From: a phage
Length of the DNA: 47,147 nt
Strand: one strand, 5' to 3'
Sequence record: PZ787336.1
In this document: piece after piece, positions 12,630-25,420 of the stretch
Layout: each line of letters starts with the position of its first letter
Position numbering within the stretch: the first letter of the stretch is position 1
Notes under the pieces: model-generated
Told to the model about the DNA's origin: nothing
Databases searched by the model: none
What the model saw: the letters and a program-made list of their open reading frames with translations, nothing else
Made by a program: the position numbers and the translations under genes

Positions 12630-13097
12630 TTACGCAGCAGGTCTGGAAGCATTGCCCGCGCGACGAACTGCAACCAGCTCAGCGCCATCAGAGGCAACGG
12701 TATAAGTTTCGTTGGAATAGAACAGGATGTTCTCACCAGTTGCGGCAACTTTCAGCGCACCAGTACCATCACTTGCCAACGGGGTGCCTTTCTTCAGTTC
12801 GGAAGATGCAGCAACCAGTGCGTGATAGGTGACGCCAAATTCACACTGCACAGCCATGCCAGTAGCATTAGCCGGAACAGCTTCAGACACATCACCACCG
12901 CCAATGTAGTTGTGCTGAAGCACGTAAGGGAAACCCTGACCGCCAGCGGTAGCGTGTGCGATGATTTTGTCATCAGCAGTATCGAAGTCAACCAGTGCTC
13001 CCGGCTTCAGCGCTACCTTCATGATGCCTTCGCGAATCTGCGGGTCGTTCTTGCGAGCTGGGCCACCAATGATGGTGCCATAACGGATAGTAGCCAT
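12630..13097 (-). CDS. putative head decoration protein
   Basis: 155 aa Gly/Ala-rich ORF between protease-scaffold and capsid genes. Confidence 0.45.
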
Positions 13098-14509
13098 TAT
13101 TCCGGTGCCTCCATATCAAAATCGTCATCAGCGTGGTTCGGCTGGAAGCCACCCTTCAGCGCGGCAGGCTTGCTGGTCAGCGCATAGGTTTCACGCAGTG
13201 CTTCGCCTTTCAGCGCATTCACGGCGGATTCCGGCAGTTTCAGTTCAGCGATGATAGCAGCACGCATCGCAGTTTCTTCCTGCTCGGTATTCGCCTGCAA
13301 TTGCTCTTTCAGCTTAACATTTTCAGCTTCGATGTCGGTCAGCTTCTGGTTGACAGCTGTCAACGATTCCTGAACCGGCTTGAGGGCATCAGCGAGTGCC
13401 GCCTGTAATTCCTCGTTCGTCATTGAGATTTCCCCTTCAGTTGATTTTACCGGCTCAAGTTCAGTCTTATAAACAGCCTTGACCCGCTCACCGACCAATT
13501 TTACCACATCATCTTCAACGATGTAGAACTGCTGAAAAATCTGGCCTTTGATTTCAAACCCGACACGGTCGTCGTAAACAGCCACAATGTAAGGCCATAC
13601 ATCTTCACCGACTTCAGCTTTCAGAATCTGGCGAATCTGCTCACTGATGTTCTCAAACGACAGGTCTGATTTGTTGGTGATGTAGTTGATGGCTTTGTGT
13701 AGCCACGATTTATAATTAATTTTGTTGGCGCTTTCGTCTGGCACGGTTGAATCCTCAAGATTTACAGTGATGCGTTCGATTTGCTCGCCGTTGGTGGCGA
13801 AGATTCCCACGCCATCTTCTGGAGTTCCGGCCCCCGGCACTCCCGGTGGCAGGATGGCGAGATGATCCCACTCCATGTTGCGTGCAATCCATGTGTATTT
13901 CTTGCCTTTACTTGTGCCTTCCGCAGCTTCGCGGTTGAGCAGCAAGCCAGTGGATACGTGGATTGGCTCAGCGCCTTCTGCGGAGTTCATTAGCGCCTCA
14001 ATGCGACCGAGCAACTCCCGTCCTTTCTCTGAGCGTTCGGCAATGACCTTGTTAACCTTCAGGTCTACCAGCGCCTTGCTACCATCATGGGATGAGTTTT
14101 CAATCCATGCCCCAACACTGAATTGGTTAGCAGCGCGCGTCATGCTTGCGGAGACATATTTACCATCAATCATCGGGTGATTGTATGGCGCAGGCTTACC
14201 ATCAAGGCCGTGATAGCTCTTGCGAATTTCCTCGCCAGGATACAAGCCGTTATTCATCACAACATCGTCAACAACTGGCACGACGTTTTTAATCACGTAG
14301 TGCGGGTCGCCATCAATGATTTGCTCACTGATATTTCTGGCTGAATTGATGGTCGTCAGTACGTTAACCTGCAATTTATTATTCATGTGCTTGAACGCTT
14401 CCACTTCTGTGAGGCGTTTTTTGGCGGCTTCTTCTGTATCGTATTCGCCAAATTGCTGTGAGCCATCTGTCGACTTGACCACCCACTTATCGCCAATCTT
14501 GACAATCAT
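13097..14509 (-). CDS. putative prohead protease / scaffolding fusion protein
   Basis: about 470 aa; C-terminal third is a charged coiled-coil-like scaffold region; ATG at 14509 preceded by GGAGAG; the track ORF extends to 14587 from a TTG. Confidence 0.55.
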
Positions 14510-14511
14510 GG

Positions 14512-14637
14512 TTAACTCTCCACGGTTAGTTTGTGGTCGAATTATAACACAGGGAGATATAGCACCATGAGGCGGTAGCCAGTGCAAACAATGGCGAATT
14601 GGTGAGTGCGTATAGCGTGAGAAAGTAAGTGATAGGG
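14512..14637 (-). CDS. hypothetical small hydrophobic protein (41 aa)
   Basis: AGGAGG RBS 5 nt upstream of the ATG; stop 2 nt before the protease-scaffold ATG. Confidence 0.3.
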
Positions 14638-14703
14638 ATTATATTCATGGGCTACCTCCTGATTAAATGATAGCAGCCCATGATGAACAAAAGATATACG
14701 GAG

Positions 14704-14850
14704 TTAGTCTGAAATCACATCATCCATAAATGCAAGGGCAGCACCTGACAGGCAGAACAGAGCGCCATAGCAAATCATCTGGTATAGAGTGTCAGCATCA
14801 AATACTCTCGCGAATGCGTAGGATGATAATATCCACAGTAATGGAATCAT
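14704..14850 (-). CDS. hypothetical small membrane protein (48 aa)
   Basis: GGAGGGG RBS; hydrophobic sequence; start overlaps upstream stop (ATGA). Confidence 0.3.
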   Translation of the reverse strand: MIPLLWILSSYAFARVFDADTLYQMICYGALFCLSGAALAFMDDVISD

Positions 14851-14960
14851 GCTCTACCCCTCCATGCTCTAATCAATTCTTCTAGGCCAGCAAATAATAA
14901 ATAGCAGAAGAATAAAGTTAAAATCCAGTGGTCAGCGAACCAGTTCAGGAAGTCCATCAT
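14847..14960 (-). CDS. hypothetical small membrane protein (37 aa)
   Basis: start overlaps the stop of the 14957..15283 gene; hydrophobic. Confidence 0.3.
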   Translation of the reverse strand: MMDFLNWFADHWILTLFFCYLLFAGLEELIRAWRGRA

Positions 14961-15283
14961 AACCCAGCCTCCTGTTTTGCGCGGTGAACGTACGACATGA
15001 ACTTGCCAATCGGCATTTCCTTGCGGATTTGCGCCAGTATCGCGCCATGCAAATATCTTTCCTCGCCGTAATACAGCTTATCGAGACGCGTTTTAATAAG
15101 CGCTCGCGTGCGCTTCATATGGTCGCGCGCCTTAAGTGCTTTCTCGTGCCAGACGCGGTCATTCTTCTTATCTGCATATTGCAGTTGACGCTCAACGGTT
15201 TCTATTTCAAACGCCAGTTGCACGTCATAATCTTCAAGTTGAATAATGTCTGCTTTCATGATGTCGTTTAACTGGATAATCAT
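14957..15283 (-). CDS. hypothetical protein
   Basis: 108 aa ORF in a tightly coupled minus-strand operon. Confidence 0.45.
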   Translation of the reverse strand: MIIQLNDIMKADIIQLEDYDVQLAFEIETVERQLQYADKKNDRVWHEKALKARDHMKRTRALIKTRLDKLYYGEERYLHGAILAQIRKEMPIGKFMSYVHRAKQEAGL

Positions 15284-17373: not shown

Positions 17374-17384
17374 TTCCACATCAC

Positions 17385-17448
17385 CTTTTCCGTTGTGGTA
17401 CAATCTACGTCAACAAGTATTGACTAAATGATGTAGAAACGTCAAGAT
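17385..17448. promoter_or_regulatory. divergent promoter region (plus TTGACT at 17420-17425; minus-strand TTGACG-TAGATT element at 17401-17413)
   Basis: contains caatctacgtcaa and gatgtagaaacgtcaa, both members of the repeated motif family. Confidence 0.4.
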
Positions 17449-17472
17449 GTTTTTCGAGAAGGAGTAGTAAAT

Positions 17473-21858: not shown

Positions 21859-22946
21859 CTAATTATTCATTATTTCATTCATTAATTCCGGTGAATACTT
21901 TAGCCACTCGGTGCATCCATTGAACCCACTAAGTCCAGCGGACTCATATCTATTATGATAATCGCTCTCCATTGATATTGCATCAACGCCTGAAAGTTTT
22001 ACGTACTTAATCACCTCAAACTCAAATGGCGTACTGCTTCTTAGTTGCATAATGCGTTGCTTTATTTTATTGGTTATCCCCACCTTTATTCCTTTCTCGC
22101 TCATTAGGAAGTAAACATACGATTTCTTATTCTTATCAAATCCTGTTACAGCGCATGATGGACATCCAGAACCTTGTATATGATGTGATGCTCGCTGTAC
22201 GAATACTCCATGGATGGGGCATGTTATTGACACGTTGGAGAGGGAGTTCTTGTAGCCGCACTTATCATAAATGTATTTATCTCCATGGACCGCCATTGAT
22301 TTTCTAGCAAAATCAGCTTCACTATCAGTTTGTGATTTTACTTGCTTGCTCTTACCGCAGGACGGACATCCACATCCAATCAGATGCACTGATGGTTTTT
22401 GCAATAAAACCCCATGAATTTCGCAAAGTATCATTACTTCTTTATTGTTTGCCTCATACTTAACGAGTGAGTAATCATATCTGTCACCATGAATGCCCTT
22501 TGATTTCTCAATAAACAGATCATTGCCAAGAGAATAAGACTTTGCTCTCTTTATGAGTCCGCAGCTAGGGCATCCCTGGCCATGTAAGTGATCTGATGGT
22601 CTTTGTTCAAATTCACCATGTCTTCGACAAACTATTACAACTTTTGATTCGCAATCTTTGTATTTAACTTTCGAGTATTCGTATGTATTAGAATGGATTT
22701 TTTTGCTTTTAATATAAACGATTCTGCATCGCTTCTTTTTGCGTTGCCTCTTCTGATGCACGCACACGCCGGACATCCATTACCAGCTAAATGATTTGAT
22801 GGTGATTGCATAAAATCACCATGCTCGCGACAGGTAATGATGACTTTAGTTTTTGAATTTTTGTAATTAGTCTTTGAATAATCATAACGATCGCCATATC
22901 GACAGATTACTTCAGAGATAAAGCGTGATGTCTTTTCTTTTGACAT
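21859..22946 (-). CDS. homing-endonuclease-like protein with tandem CPxCG zinc-ribbon repeats and C-terminal T5orf172 (GIY-YIG-like) domain, apparent frameshift
   Basis: first repeat unit in ORF 22635..22946, further units and the YVYFLMSEKGIKVGIT...TEW domain in ORF 21859..22776; frames meet at an A7 run (plus T7 at 22698-22704). Confidence 0.6.
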
Positions 22947-23027
22947 GATAACCTCGTGTAGGTTCGTGATGAAGATTGCAGCAGGGCGTCACGTTCACCT
23001 TTTCGACTGGCCGGTCTAGCTGCACTT

Positions 23028-23042
23028 GTGATTATATCACTT
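23028..23042 (-). promoter_or_regulatory. extended -10 promoter (GTGATATAAT on minus strand)
   Basis: identical 13-mer gtgattatatcac to the one at 5443-5455; upstream of the endonuclease-like gene. Confidence 0.45.
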
Positions 23043-23990: not shown

Positions 23991-25374
23991 CGTCAGGATT
24001 ACCCTCAGTGACGACCTGGATTTCTTCAATCGGCTCCATACCAACCATACCGCGAGCCTCATCAACGGTCAGCAGCGCAGATTGACCAGCATCAAAGAAC
24101 GACTTATTAGCAGTGGCGAGCTTGGACAGCAATTCCGCTTTATCCAGCTCTGAAGGTGCAAGCAGGTCATCCCACTTAACCTTGTAGCCATTTGTCGGTG
24201 CTTTATCGACAATGCCAAACTGAATCATGCGCTCAACGAACATTGAGATAACATAGTCAACCCACGTTTCGCGTCGCTGCTTGGCGGTCATCGCCTCCTG
24301 CATCTTGTCTTCATCGCTCGCAAGGCGTCCGGTTTGCTGACCAAAAATGACGGTGAACGGAAGCGCCATTGATGCAGCGAACTGGTTGGCAGCCACTTCC
24401 CACGTAGGTTTTGGGTCGGCGGGCGTCACAGCGAGCACCTTTGCATCCGCGCCCATTGTGAACATGGCTGCGTCAATCCCGGAGTTCAGCGCCTCAATAT
24501 TCTCATTCATGATATCGGTGAGTTCTTCAATATCGACACCCATAGACTGCGCAAGGCTTGCTGGCGTTACGTTGTCCTTCGTGTAGTTAACAGCCAGTTG
24601 ACGGCTGGCATTCTTCAGGAATCCTTCCGCAGAGCTGCCGGAAACTTTAGCCATGTCGATAAGGCTATTGTAACCAGCACGCAGCATCGGGATGCCGCTG
24701 AACATGCTGCCATCAAAACTACCCTCAGCAAGAATAATGATGCGGTCAGGATGAATCTGCACGGAACGCTCAGGTTTGCCGTCGCTGTCGAAATCTTCCA
24801 CGGCGCTTTCCTGATACTCGTACATCTCAGGCATTCCGTAGTCTTCGCTGGTTTCGTCGTTATTCCATGCGCTAACGCGTAGCTGCTCTTCCCATACCGG
24901 AATAAAGCGAACGATGGATTTATCTTTAATGCGGCGGGTTTTGGTGATGTCTACCGGCTCACTCCATTGCTTGCCATCACGGATTTGCAGGATAACGGCG
25001 GAATAGCGGTTGATGGCATTGCGCTTGTCGGCCTCCTTGATGAATGGATAAGCACGCTTCATCATTTCGTTGATGGACAGCTCCCACGTCGTGGAGTTCT
25101 TGTCATCCTCGCCATCTTCTACCACTTCAGGGTATTTCTGCCAGCATTTATTAATAATGCGGTTAATACCAGCGGCGGCTGCTGGATGTCGCTCGTAGGC
25201 ATAGCGGAACATCTCAGCAGTGATTTCTTGCGGGTATCCCAGCTCCTTCCACATGAACTCACGTTTCTGGTCTAGATTCTTCCCGCCAGCACAAAGCCGC
25301 TGCTGCTGAATAGCCCGGTTATTGTTCGCTACGCGGTCGCGAATATAGGCGTTTAGTGCATCAATTTTGGACAT
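23971..25374 (-). CDS. portal protein
   Basis: 467 aa acidic protein between terminase region and head morphogenesis gene; size and position typical. Confidence 0.7.
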
Positions 25375-25420
25375 ATGTCACCAATAAAAAATCCCTCACG
25401 ATGGAGGGATTATAGCATGG

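What the first reader, a model, noticed from the sequence alone, without database searches (positions are those of the whole stretch)
14512..14960. Three very small hydrophobic ORFs with strong ribosome-binding sites just upstream of the protease-scaffold gene
ORFs of 37, 48 and 41 codons are chained by overlapping stop/start codons. The last has an AGGAGG site and ends 2 nt before the protease-scaffold ATG. All are below the usual ORF-calling cutoff and would be missed by automated annotation.
Basis: seen in the sequence. Interest (0 to 1): 0.35.

Follow-up and report, generated by a model that had tools for sequence, protein, structure and literature searches.

The report
Three small hydrophobic phage genes
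Three tiny hydrophobic genes in a Skatevirus-like Salmonella/E. coli phage appear to be real rather than chance ORFs; the one most annotations skip (40 aa) is the most conserved, has its ribosome-binding site and start codon inside a conserved RNA hairpin, and probably carries the head-gene promoter in its last codons, but its function is unknown and the finding is modest.

Summary
The ORFs exist, on the minus strand: ORF1 14847-14960 (37 aa), ORF2 14704-14850 (48 aa), ORF3 14526-14648 (40 aa). All are hydrophobic and have good Shine-Dalgarno sites. Two details are wrong. ORF2 and ORF3 are separated by 55 nt, not chained. ORF3 ends 16 nt, not 2 nt, before the putative protease-scaffold ATG (14509).

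All three show coding-type evolution (synonymous changes far exceed non-synonymous, only in their own frame). Their histories differ:
- ORF1 is a sporadic cassette, also found in Jedunavirus phages.
- ORF2 (phrog_18423) occurs in two clades and is disrupted in a viable lab mutant.
- ORF3 occurs in all three related clades at exactly 40 codons, yet is unannotated in most GenBank records sampled.

Two new features sit on ORF3. A conserved 12-15 bp hairpin pairs its SD and AUG, and has compensatory changes between clades. One record labels it a terminator, but it has no U-tract. ORF3 codons 33-36 form a perfect extended -10 box (TGTGTTATAAT) 31 nt upstream of the protease ATG, probably the head-operon promoter.

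The ORFs most likely end an accessory small-gene operon rather than belong to head assembly. Function is unknown. This is a new member of a known kind, of modest interest.

The parts
14847..14960 (-). ORF1: a 37-aa gene for a hydrophobic peptide with an acidic N-terminus, one hydrophobic helix (WILTLFFCYLLFAGL) and a basic C-terminus. It is a variable cassette.
   Evidence: ORF and SD seen. It is present in 5 of 76 loci here and in 18 phage records at 89% identity or more. Another 13 Jedunavirus records carry homologues at 52-60% aa identity. Against the Jedunavirus homologue, pS is 0.95 and pN 0.29 in frame, versus 0.51/0.41 and 0.33/0.46 in the other frames.
14704..14850 (-). ORF2: a 48-aa gene with two predicted helices and an acidic tail (DDVISD). 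It belongs to phrog_18423.
   Evidence: phrog_18423 match, E 3e-35. Present in clade A (38 loci) and clade C (49 aa, about 40% identity), absent in clade B. Clade A versus C gives pS 0.80 and pN 0.36 in frame. AF2 predicts helices 2-18 and 22-47, pLDDT 79. A 43-bp deletion disrupts it in the viable lab mutant seszw_200L.
14649..14703 (-). Non-coding gap between ORF2 and ORF3. Its 3' part forms the 5' arm of the hairpin.
   Evidence: The sequence 5' of the hairpin is not conserved between clades, and the gap length varies (53-68 nt).
14645..14683 (-). Conserved RNA hairpin (12 + 2 bp in the window) that pairs 4 of the 6 SD bases (14655-14660) and the whole AUG (14646-14648) of ORF3.
   Evidence: dG -20.4 kcal/mol, z -3.2, 0 of 200 shuffles as stable. 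All 33 unique variants in three clades fold the same way, with dG -16.9 to -25.8. Stem pairs differ on both sides between clades (for example C-G versus U-A and G-C versus C-G), and clade B has a matched 2-nt insertion in each arm. ORF3's initiation region is the third most structured of 90 in the window. The ASO78B record annotates the hairpin as a 'rho-independent terminator'. No Rfam match.
14526..14648 (-). ORF3: a 40-aa uncharged hydrophobic gene, predicted helix-kink-helix around a conserved S-P. It is the most conserved of the three.
   Evidence: An intact 40-codon ORF with AGGAGG and ATG in nearly all of 75 loci, in 206 phage records and in three clades at 45-53% aa identity and 58-62% nt identity with no indels. 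NG86 pS/pN is 0.73/0.33 (A-B), 0.61/0.36 (A-C) and 0.63/0.31 (B-C). The other frames show no such excess and contain stops. AF2 predicts H3-16 and H19-39, pLDDT 74.5. No Pfam, PHROG or NCBIfam match.
14541..14551 (-). Perfect extended -10 promoter box TGTGTTATAAT inside ORF3 codons 33-36 (..G TGT TAT AAT), 31 nt upstream of the protease ATG. Putative head-operon promoter.
   Evidence: Identical in clades A, B and C although synonymous sites elsewhere are near saturation. All 5 perfect TGNTATAAT sites in the window are on the minus strand, 20-85 nt upstream of a gene start: portal, endonuclease, protease, major tail protein and the gene before the tape measure. In loci with a 1.4-kb insertion, a fresh TGATATAAT sits about 30 nt before the protease ATG.
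14507..14525 (-). 16-nt spacer carrying the protease gene's own SD (GGAG, 14518-14521), followed by its ATG (14507-14509).
   Evidence: The motif cG(c/t)GGAG directly after the ORF3 stop is conserved in all three clades.
14957..15283 (-). Upstream 108-aa gene (phrog_14549), syntenic with ORF2 and ORF3 in all clades. Its 3' end carries the AGGAGG used by whichever ORF follows it.
   Evidence: It is deleted in the viable mutant seszw_140S.

Best explanation
Genes. The three ORFs are genuine but evolutionarily independent genes for small hydrophobic, probably inner-membrane, peptides. They lie at the 3' end of a minus-strand operon of small accessory genes that also includes a Lar-like anti-restriction gene. 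That operon starts near 17.4 kb. They are not part of the head-assembly operon.
- ORF1 is a mobile cassette in a variable slot.
- ORF2 is an older accessory gene that is dispensable in the laboratory.
- ORF3 is the conserved member.

ORF3 regulation. On read-through transcripts, ORF3's SD and AUG are locked in a conserved hairpin. Translation of this very hydrophobic peptide is therefore kept low or conditional. Known parallels are the structured initiation regions of T4 genes e and 49, lambda S, and type I toxins.

Promoter. The last codons of ORF3 double as an extended -10 promoter. It launches the protease-scaffold, decoration and major-capsid transcript about 25 nt upstream of the protease ATG.

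What is shown and what is inferred.
- Shown: the ORFs, their conservation and selection pattern, the hairpin and its covariation, the conserved -10 box and its positional pattern, and the dispensability of ORF2 and the 108-aa gene.
- Inferred: membrane location, translational gating, promoter activity, and an accessory role such as host takeover or exclusion.
For: Coding:
- Synonymous changes exceed non-synonymous ones only in the proposed frames.
- Within-clade polymorphism is biased to third codon positions: 7/7/19 segregating sites in clade A.
- ORF3 keeps a fixed 40-codon length across 58-62% nt identity.
- SD and ATG are conserved.

Hairpin. A lab-evolved U.G to C-G change keeps the pairing.

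Not a canonical terminator: there is no U-tract in clades A and B, and the terminator scan does not call it.

Promoter.

Operon context.

Distant relatives with a contiguous MuF-protease junction lack these ORFs.

Dispensability: PMC9825161.

Hydrophobic helices.
Against: - There is no direct evidence of translation, membrane insertion, transcript ends or promoter activity.
- Hydrophobic segments are short (15-17 residues) with marginal predicted insertion energy.
- Two metagenomic clade-B contigs carry a frameshift (L052) or a stop loss (L037) in ORF3. ORF3 may therefore be dispensable, or these may be assembly errors.
- Part of ORF3's amino-acid conservation (C-Y-N) is explained by the embedded promoter. 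It is lost in L063, where another -10 box replaces it.
- If the hairpin terminated most transcription, ORF3 would rarely be transcribed at all.
- Five TGNTATAAT sites against 2.0 expected is by itself only marginal: 5 of 100 shuffles reach that count.
Confidence: 0.6

Rival explanations
1. ORF3 is not translated. The 194 nt between ORF2 and the protease gene are purely regulatory: a terminator or insulator hairpin ending the accessory operon, a spacer, and the head promoter. The open frame would be incidental.
For: The ASO78B authors annotated the hairpin as a rho-independent terminator and called no gene there. Most records do not annotate ORF3. The SD and AUG are sequestered. The C-Y-N conservation is attributable to the -10 box. 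ORF3 is broken in L037 and L052.
Against: In-frame pS is 0.61-0.73 against pN 0.31-0.36, and the pattern is absent or reversed in the other frames. Third-position bias is seen both within and between clades. There are no indels in 120 nt at about 60% identity, while the flanking gap varies in length. Only this frame is open in all clades. The canonical AGGAGG-N6-ATG geometry and hydrophobic character are conserved in three clades. No U-tract follows the stem in clades A and B.
Confidence: 0.13
2. ORF3, with or without ORF2, is a head-assembly factor co-expressed with the protease-scaffold gene. Possible roles are a membrane anchor or nucleation site for proheads, or a regulator of the protease.
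For: ORF3 sits invariably just upstream of the protease gene in three clades. It was retained in all sequenced genome-reduced seszw mutants examined. One contig has an in-frame ORF3-protease fusion.
Against: The probable head promoter lies downstream of most of ORF3, so ORF3 would not be on the head transcript. More distant phages with the same protease, decoration and capsid module have no such ORF. A 1.4-kb insertion separates ORF3 from the protease in L024 and L063 without loss of either. ORF2 is disrupted in a viable mutant. Retention of ORF3 in the mutants is equally explained by the embedded promoter, or by ORF3 never being targeted because it was unannotated.
Confidence: 0.07
3. ORF3 is a toxic membrane peptide held in check by its mRNA structure. 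It would resemble a type I toxin, or a lysis-timing or exclusion factor, and be released only at a defined time or by RNA processing or an alternative transcript start.
For: It is a small, uncharged, very hydrophobic peptide whose SD and AUG are sequestered in a conserved hairpin. Clade A has an extended -10-like TGCTATCAT in the 5' arm. That box would start a transcript at the SD and free it, as in T4 gene e (the T4 parallel is from my own knowledge).
Against: No conserved antisense promoter was found. The only plus-strand candidate (14617-14645) matches 9 of 12 positions, at chance level, and is not conserved. The internal -10-like box is weak in clades B and C. A viable lab mutant changes its key first T. 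The lysis cassette is complete elsewhere in relatives. There are no toxicity data.
Confidence: 0.12
4. ORF3 is a leader or upstream ORF whose translation controls the protease-scaffold gene. Ribosomes ending at the ORF3 stop would re-initiate at, or unmask, the protease start 16 nt downstream.
For: The protease SD follows the ORF3 stop directly, and the 15-16 nt spacing is conserved.
Against: The protease-scaffold protein is needed in large amounts, whereas ORF3's initiation region is among the least accessible in the genome. The protease has its own SD and probably its own promoter inside ORF3. No conserved structure masks the protease start in the folds of the three clades. The insertion variants uncouple the two genes.
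Confidence: 0.05

Closest known systems
T4 gene e (lysozyme), gene 49 and soc: initiation regions masked by a hairpin on early read-through transcripts (own knowledge: McPheeters 1986; Barth 1988)
   Same: A stable hairpin pairs the SD and AUG of a phage gene that sits downstream of an earlier transcription unit. Read-through mRNA would therefore be translationally silent.
   Different: In T4, a late promoter inside the hairpin gives an open mRNA. Here an internal promoter is only weakly suggested in clade A and is mutated in a viable lab mutant. How the hairpin opens is unknown.
Lambda S holin sdi stem-loop and type I toxin mRNAs such as hok, tisB and ibs (own knowledge)
   Same: A small hydrophobic membrane peptide whose translation start is controlled by local mRNA structure.
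   Different: ORF3 has no dual-start motif, no basic C-terminus and no lysis-cassette context. No conserved antisense RNA promoter was found. Toxicity is untested.
phrog_18423 (PHROGs v4, unknown function)
   Same: ORF2 matches full length at E 3e-35, and the clade C homologue at E 1.9e-8.
   Different: The family has no assigned function. This work adds its selection pattern, two-helix prediction, loss in the Klebsiella clade and dispensability in seszw.
Small membrane accessory or exclusion proteins of phages, such as T4 Imm and HK97 gp15 (own knowledge)
   Same: Short hydrophobic, non-essential proteins that are variably present and embedded next to structural genes.
   Different: There is no sequence similarity and no functional test. 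ORF1-3 are smaller (37-48 aa).
Extended -10 (TGnTATAAT) sigma-70 promoters (own knowledge)
   Same: A perfect consensus match at an appropriate distance from the protease start. Similar boxes precede the other structural modules.
   Different: It lies inside a coding sequence, has no recognisable -35 box and has no experimental start-site mapping.

Membership tests
phrog_18423 (ORF2) | Significant full-length match to the family HMM | tested here: met
   E 3e-35, residues 1-48 of 48. The clade C homologue matches at E 1.9e-8.
Protein-coding gene (ORF1, ORF2, ORF3) | Frame kept open in diverged relatives, with an excess of synonymous over non-synonymous change specific to that frame | tested here: met
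   In-frame pS/pN: ORF3 0.73/0.33, 0.61/0.36 and 0.63/0.31; ORF2 0.80/0.36; ORF1 0.95/0.29. Other frames lack the excess and contain stops.
Protein-coding gene (ORF1, ORF2, ORF3) | Direct evidence of translation (ribosome footprints or peptide) | not testable with these tools
   No ribosome profiling or proteomics data for this phage group were found in the searches made.
Intrinsic (rho-independent) terminator (the hairpin, as annotated in ASO78B) | GC-rich stem-loop | tested here: met
   Stem of 12-15 bp, dG -17 to -26 kcal/mol.
Intrinsic (rho-independent) terminator (the hairpin, as annotated in ASO78B) | U-rich tract immediately 3' of the stem | tested here: not met
   Clade A has AAUAUAAU and clade B has CCAAUCAU after the stem. 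Only clade C is U-rich (UUUAUUAU). The terminator scan does not call it.
Holin or pinholin | Located in the lysis cassette next to the endolysin or spanin genes | tested here: not met
   In the annotated relative Bas77, the endolysin, holin and spanin genes lie about 4 kb away as a complete cassette.
Holin or pinholin | Charged, basic cytoplasmic C-terminal tail, and a match to a holin family | tested here: not met
   The ORF2 tail is acidic and ORF3 has no charged residue. No Pfam, PHROG or NCBIfam holin match was found.
Type I toxin-antitoxin | Hydrophobic peptide under 60 aa with a structurally sequestered SD | tested here: met
   ORF3 only.
Type I toxin-antitoxin | Conserved antisense RNA gene overlapping the toxin mRNA | tested here: inconclusive
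   There is one 9-of-12 promoter-like site on the plus strand at 14617-14645. The number of such sites is at chance level, and my reading of the sequence finds it not conserved in clades B and C.
Type I toxin-antitoxin | Toxicity on overexpression | not testable with these tools
   This requires an experiment.
T4 e/49-type temporal translational control | Hairpin masking the initiation region on upstream-initiated transcripts | tested here: met
T4 e/49-type temporal translational control | Second promoter that initiates inside the hairpin | tested here: inconclusive
   Clade A has TGCTATCAT, while clades B and C have only TGTTACCTT and TGTTAACCT. The viable mutant seszw_300S changes the first T of the hexamer.
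Extended -10 sigma-70 promoter (14541-14551) | TGnTATAAT consensus at a suitable distance upstream of a gene start | tested here: met
   Perfect match 31 nt before the protease ATG and conserved in three clades. A replacement box is present in the insertion variants.
Extended -10 sigma-70 promoter (14541-14551) | Mapped transcription start | not testable with these tools
   No transcript data are available.

The most novel reading that the evidence does not exclude
ORF3 with its hairpin may be a compact regulatory module at the boundary between accessory and head genes. A hydrophobic 40-aa peptide would be silenced on read-through mRNA by an anti-SD/anti-AUG hairpin. It would be released only by RNA processing or a timed alternative transcript. 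It would then act on the membrane, for example as a lysis-timing, exclusion or prohead-nucleation factor. Its own coding sequence would meanwhile supply the promoter for the capsid operon. That would make it a previously uncharacterised, conserved and functionally important micro-protein of the Skatevirus/Roufvirus group, missing from PHROGs and Pfam and unannotated in most genome records.
Probability: 0.12. Interest if true: 0.6.

Novelty: new member of a known kind. Interest (0 to 1): 0.33.

Why it matters
- It corrects annotation for a widely isolated group of Salmonella, E. coli and Klebsiella therapy-candidate phages. A conserved 40-aa gene is missing from most records, and its RBS hairpin has been labelled a terminator.
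- It gives a concrete, testable map of the boundary between the accessory genes and the head operon: hairpin, micro-gene, embedded extended -10 promoter. This is useful for genome engineering and reduction. It may explain why this stretch survived genome minimisation of phage seszw.
- It adds a clean example of three neighbouring micro-genes with different evolutionary dynamics: a mobile cassette, a clade-specific gene and a conserved gene.
- It does not reveal a new kind of system, and the peptides' functions remain unknown.

Tried and rejected
Family and homology searches:
- Pfam, NCBIfam and PHROGs (also at E up to 10) gave nothing for ORF1 or ORF3.
- Rfam gave nothing for the hairpin.
- PDB sequence search gave nothing for the 470-aa protein.
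- The 5.8-billion-protein search and the exhaustive HMMER search found ORF3 only in the two known clades plus one new clade. ORF2 was found only in close relatives.
- ORF1 was too short for that tool.

Technical failures:
- A covariance model built on clade B recovered clades B and C but not clade A at E of 0.01 or below. Pair counts were therefore made from per-sequence folds instead.
- MAFFT misaligned the 5' arm between clades by 2 nt.
- The supplementary tables of the seszw genome-reduction paper are not held. Dispensability was read from the deposited mutant genomes instead.
- One literature query failed on term length, and a general small-protein search gave nothing specific.

Ideas rejected:
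- Canonical terminator: no U-tract.
- Holin: wrong context and wrong tail charge.
- N-terminal extension of the protease from TTG 14587: that frame is closed in the other clades.
- Sigma-70 promoter in the 55-nt gap: nothing was found by the scan.
- Head-assembly homologues in distant relatives: there the MuF gene abuts the protease directly.

Full report
**Observation**

The region is transcribed on the minus strand. The ORF listing and the sequence show the following:
- ORF1, 14847..14960, 37 aa.
- ORF2, 14704..14850, 48 aa.
- ORF3, 14526..14648, 40 aa.
- The 470-aa putative protease-scaffold gene, 13097..14509.

PHROGs assigns the 470-aa protein to phrog_760 (unknown function), with weak head-maturation-protease hits. 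It has no Pfam hit and no relative of solved structure. I therefore treat 'protease-scaffold' as plausible but unproven.

The SD sites are real:
- AGGAGG 7 nt before ORF1.
- GGAGG about 8 nt before ORF2.
- AGGAGG 6 nt before ORF3.

The 108-aa upstream gene overlaps ORF1, and ORF1 overlaps ORF2, each by ATGA.

ORF2 and ORF3 are separated by a 55-nt gap. ORF3 stops 16 nt, not 2 nt, before the protease ATG. All three products are hydrophobic, with GRAVY 0.63-1.06.

**What phage this is**

The window is about 93% identical to Salmonella, E. coli and Shigella siphophages of the Skatevirus cluster, such as Segz_1, swi2, Sf11, Skate, seszw and BASEL Bas77-81. The BASEL preprint (10.1101/2024.09.12.612763) treats the cluster as Skatevirus, rooted against Roufvirus.

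In the annotated relative Bas77 the gene order is as follows:
- terminase;
- portal and MuF-like head morphogenesis gene;
- reverse-strand genes;
- a complete lysis cassette;
- a forward block of small genes, including a Lar-like anti-restriction gene;
- three small ORFs, then the protease, decoration protein and capsid protein.

In the window, that small-gene block begins near 17.4 kb behind sigma-70-like boxes.

**Are they genes?**

I fetched 74 IMG/VR loci around relatives of the protease, and later a third lineage through an exhaustive HMMER search.

ORF3:
- It is found in 75 of 76 loci and in 206 phage records.
- In nearly all loci it is an intact 40-codon ORF with AGGAGG and ATG.
- It occurs in three clades: A (Skatevirus-like), B (Klebsiella phages, Roufvirus-like) and C (two metagenomic contigs).
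- The clades share 45-53% aa identity and 58-62% nt identity, with no indel.
- Nei-Gojobori counts give pS/pN of 0.73/0.33 (A-B), 0.61/0.36 (A-C) and 0.63/0.31 (B-C) in frame.
- The other two frames show no synonymous excess and contain stops.
- Within-clade polymorphism is biased to third codon positions.

ORF2:
- It is phrog_18423.
- It is present in clades A and C and absent in B.
- Clade A versus C gives pS/pN of 0.80/0.36.

ORF1:
- It occupies a variable slot between the 108-aa gene and ORF2.
- In different strains the slot is empty, or holds ORF1, or holds unrelated 61-, 62- or 83-aa ORFs.
- ORF1 occurs in 18 close relatives.
- At 52-60% identity it also occurs in 13 Jedunavirus phages, inside another small-gene cluster.
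- Against the Jedunavirus homologue, pS/pN is 0.95/0.29.

All three are therefore real coding sequences by evolutionary criteria, with three different histories.

Distant phages sharing the protease, decoration and capsid module have the MuF gene abutting the protease and lack these ORFs. Examples are Providencia PSTNGR2lys, Erwinia Eho59 and several prophage-like contigs.

**Annotation status**

ORF1 and ORF2 homologues are annotated in RefSeq. Bas77 annotates all three positions. ORF3 is unannotated in 50 of 59 annotated records in a spread sample. Twenty of those 50 are seszw clones sharing one annotation. ORF3 and ORF1 are absent from PHROGs, Pfam and NCBIfam.

**New feature 1: a hairpin over the ORF3 start**

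The 3' part of the 55-nt gap pairs with the SD and AUG of ORF3 (window 14645-14683).
- dG is -20.4 kcal/mol, z is -3.2, and none of 200 shuffles is as stable.
- All 33 unique variants from the three clades fold the same way, with 12-15 bp and dG -16.9 to -25.8.
- Every within-clade substitution keeps pairing (G.U to A-U or G-C, U-A to U.G, C-G to U.G).
- Between clades, several pairs change on both sides, and clade B has a matched 2-nt insertion in each arm.
- ORF3's initiation region is the third most structured of 90 putative genes in the window.

The ASO78B GenBank record labels exactly this hairpin a rho-independent terminator and calls no gene there. However, clades A and B have no U-tract after the stem, and the terminator scan does not call it. 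Rfam has no match.

**New feature 2: a promoter inside ORF3**

ORF3 codons 33-36 read ..G TGT TAT AAT, which is TGTGTTATAAT, a perfect extended -10 box 31 nt upstream of the protease ATG.
- It is identical in all three clades although synonymous sites elsewhere are near saturation.
- The window holds five perfect TGNTATAAT sites, against 2.0 expected. All are on the minus strand.
- Each lies 20-85 nt upstream of a gene start: portal, an endonuclease, the protease, the major tail protein and the gene preceding the tape measure.
- In two loci (L024 and L063) a 1.4-kb insertion with a reverse-oriented endonuclease-like gene separates ORF3 from the protease. In both, a fresh TGATATAAT lies about 30 nt before the protease ATG.
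- In L063, ORF3 has lost its C-Y-N end.

The head genes therefore very probably have their own promoter. ORF1-3 then belong to the upstream accessory transcript. Part of ORF3's amino-acid conservation is a nucleotide constraint from the promoter.

**Experimental hints**

The CiPGr genome-reduction study of phage seszw (PMC9825161) deposited its mutant genomes, which give three hints:
- seszw_200L carries a 43-bp deletion inside ORF2.
- seszw_140S lacks the 108-aa gene.
- The ORF3 stretch is intact in every mutant examined, including two mutants of about 37-38 kb examined in detail, and the stretch is also matched in full in the 36.0-36.7 kb records.

That retention could reflect the embedded promoter, a need for ORF3, or simply that the unannotated ORF was not targeted. 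One evolved mutant has a U.G to C-G change in the hairpin, which preserves pairing. Another has I31T in ORF3. Two metagenomic clade-B contigs carry a frameshift or a stop loss in ORF3.

**Structure predictions**

AlphaFold2 gives a helix-kink-helix for ORF3 (H3-16 and H19-39, broken at the conserved S-P, pLDDT 74.5). It gives two helices for ORF2 (pLDDT 79.4). Hydrophobic stretches are only 15-17 residues long, so membrane insertion is plausible but not certain.

**Interpretation**

- Best reading (confidence about 0.6): three genuine small hydrophobic accessory genes close an early or accessory operon. ORF3's translation is restrained by a conserved anti-SD/anti-AUG hairpin, and its 3' end houses the head-operon promoter.
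- The mechanism resembles the masked initiation regions of T4 e/49, lambda S and type I toxin mRNAs (my own knowledge). Membership of any of those systems is not established.
- Rival: a purely regulatory, untranslated ORF3 (about 0.13). The selection pattern argues against it.
- Rival: a toxin or timing peptide (about 0.12). This is a functional refinement that cannot be tested here.
- Rival: a head-assembly role (about 0.07).
- Rival: a leader ORF for the protease (about 0.05).

**Verdict**

The three ORFs are a new member of a known kind (small conserved phage membrane-type micro-genes), with a neat but unproven regulatory arrangement. Interest is modest.

Noticed in passing
window 25374-25417 (-): The extended -10 box TGCTATAAT before the portal gene is followed at once by a terminator-like hairpin (ccctccatcgtgaggg plus a T-run) before the portal ATG at 25374. 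A promoter and a terminator appear to overlap at this module boundary too.
   Followed up: no
window 21859-23039 (-): An endonuclease gene (phrog_681 / phrog_559) is split into two overlapping ORFs of 103 and 305 aa, which suggests a frameshift or decay. It is preceded by a perfect TGATATAAT at 23031-23039, just after the head-morphogenesis gene.
   Followed up: partly
L024:1540-2960 and L063:1540-2970: A 1.4-kb insertion carries a reverse-oriented 465-469 aa endonuclease-like gene between ORF3 and the protease. A bidirectional terminator follows ORF3, and a new TGATATAAT overlaps the endonuclease start codon.
   Followed up: partly
L037:2863-3010; L052:2861-2980: In L037 the ORF3 stop is TAA to CAA, which fuses ORF3 in frame to the protease (512 aa). 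In L052 a 2-nt deletion frameshifts ORF3. Both are metagenomic contigs, so these may be real variants or assembly errors.
   Followed up: no
window 14380-14509 (-), compared with L021-L027 and L084: The first 43 or so residues of the protease-scaffold protein are a swappable module. The window has [11 protein letters not shown]..., while other strains of the same clade and clade C start MNRLQ... or MKKLQ... and lack it.
   Followed up: no
L167:3508-3693 (seszw wild type); also L042: An unannotated 61-aa ORF with two CxxC pairs (zinc-ribbon-like) fills the variable slot between the 108-aa gene and ORF2 in seszw. Other strains carry unrelated 62-aa or 83-aa ORFs at the same junction.
   Followed up: partly
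L165:2501-2611 (Klebsiella phage 1611E-K2-1 gp33): RefSeq names the 36-aa ORF1 homologue 'NADH-ubiquinone oxidoreductase chain 3'. Neighbouring tiny genes are named 'glycosyltransferase' and 'outer membrane adhesin like protein'. These names are almost certainly spurious.
   Followed up: no
L168:2309-2340 (seszw_300S); L172:176-298 (seszw_230L): Lab-evolved genome-reduced seszw mutants carry point changes here. One is T to C in the hairpin 5' arm (U.G becomes C-G). The other is I31T in ORF3, about 15 nt upstream of the -10 hexamer.
   Followed up: partly
window 17380-17450 (-): Two TTGACG boxes with a -10-like AATACT lie in the divergent intergenic region. They are the likely early promoter(s) of the small-gene operon that ends with ORF1-3.
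   Followed up: no
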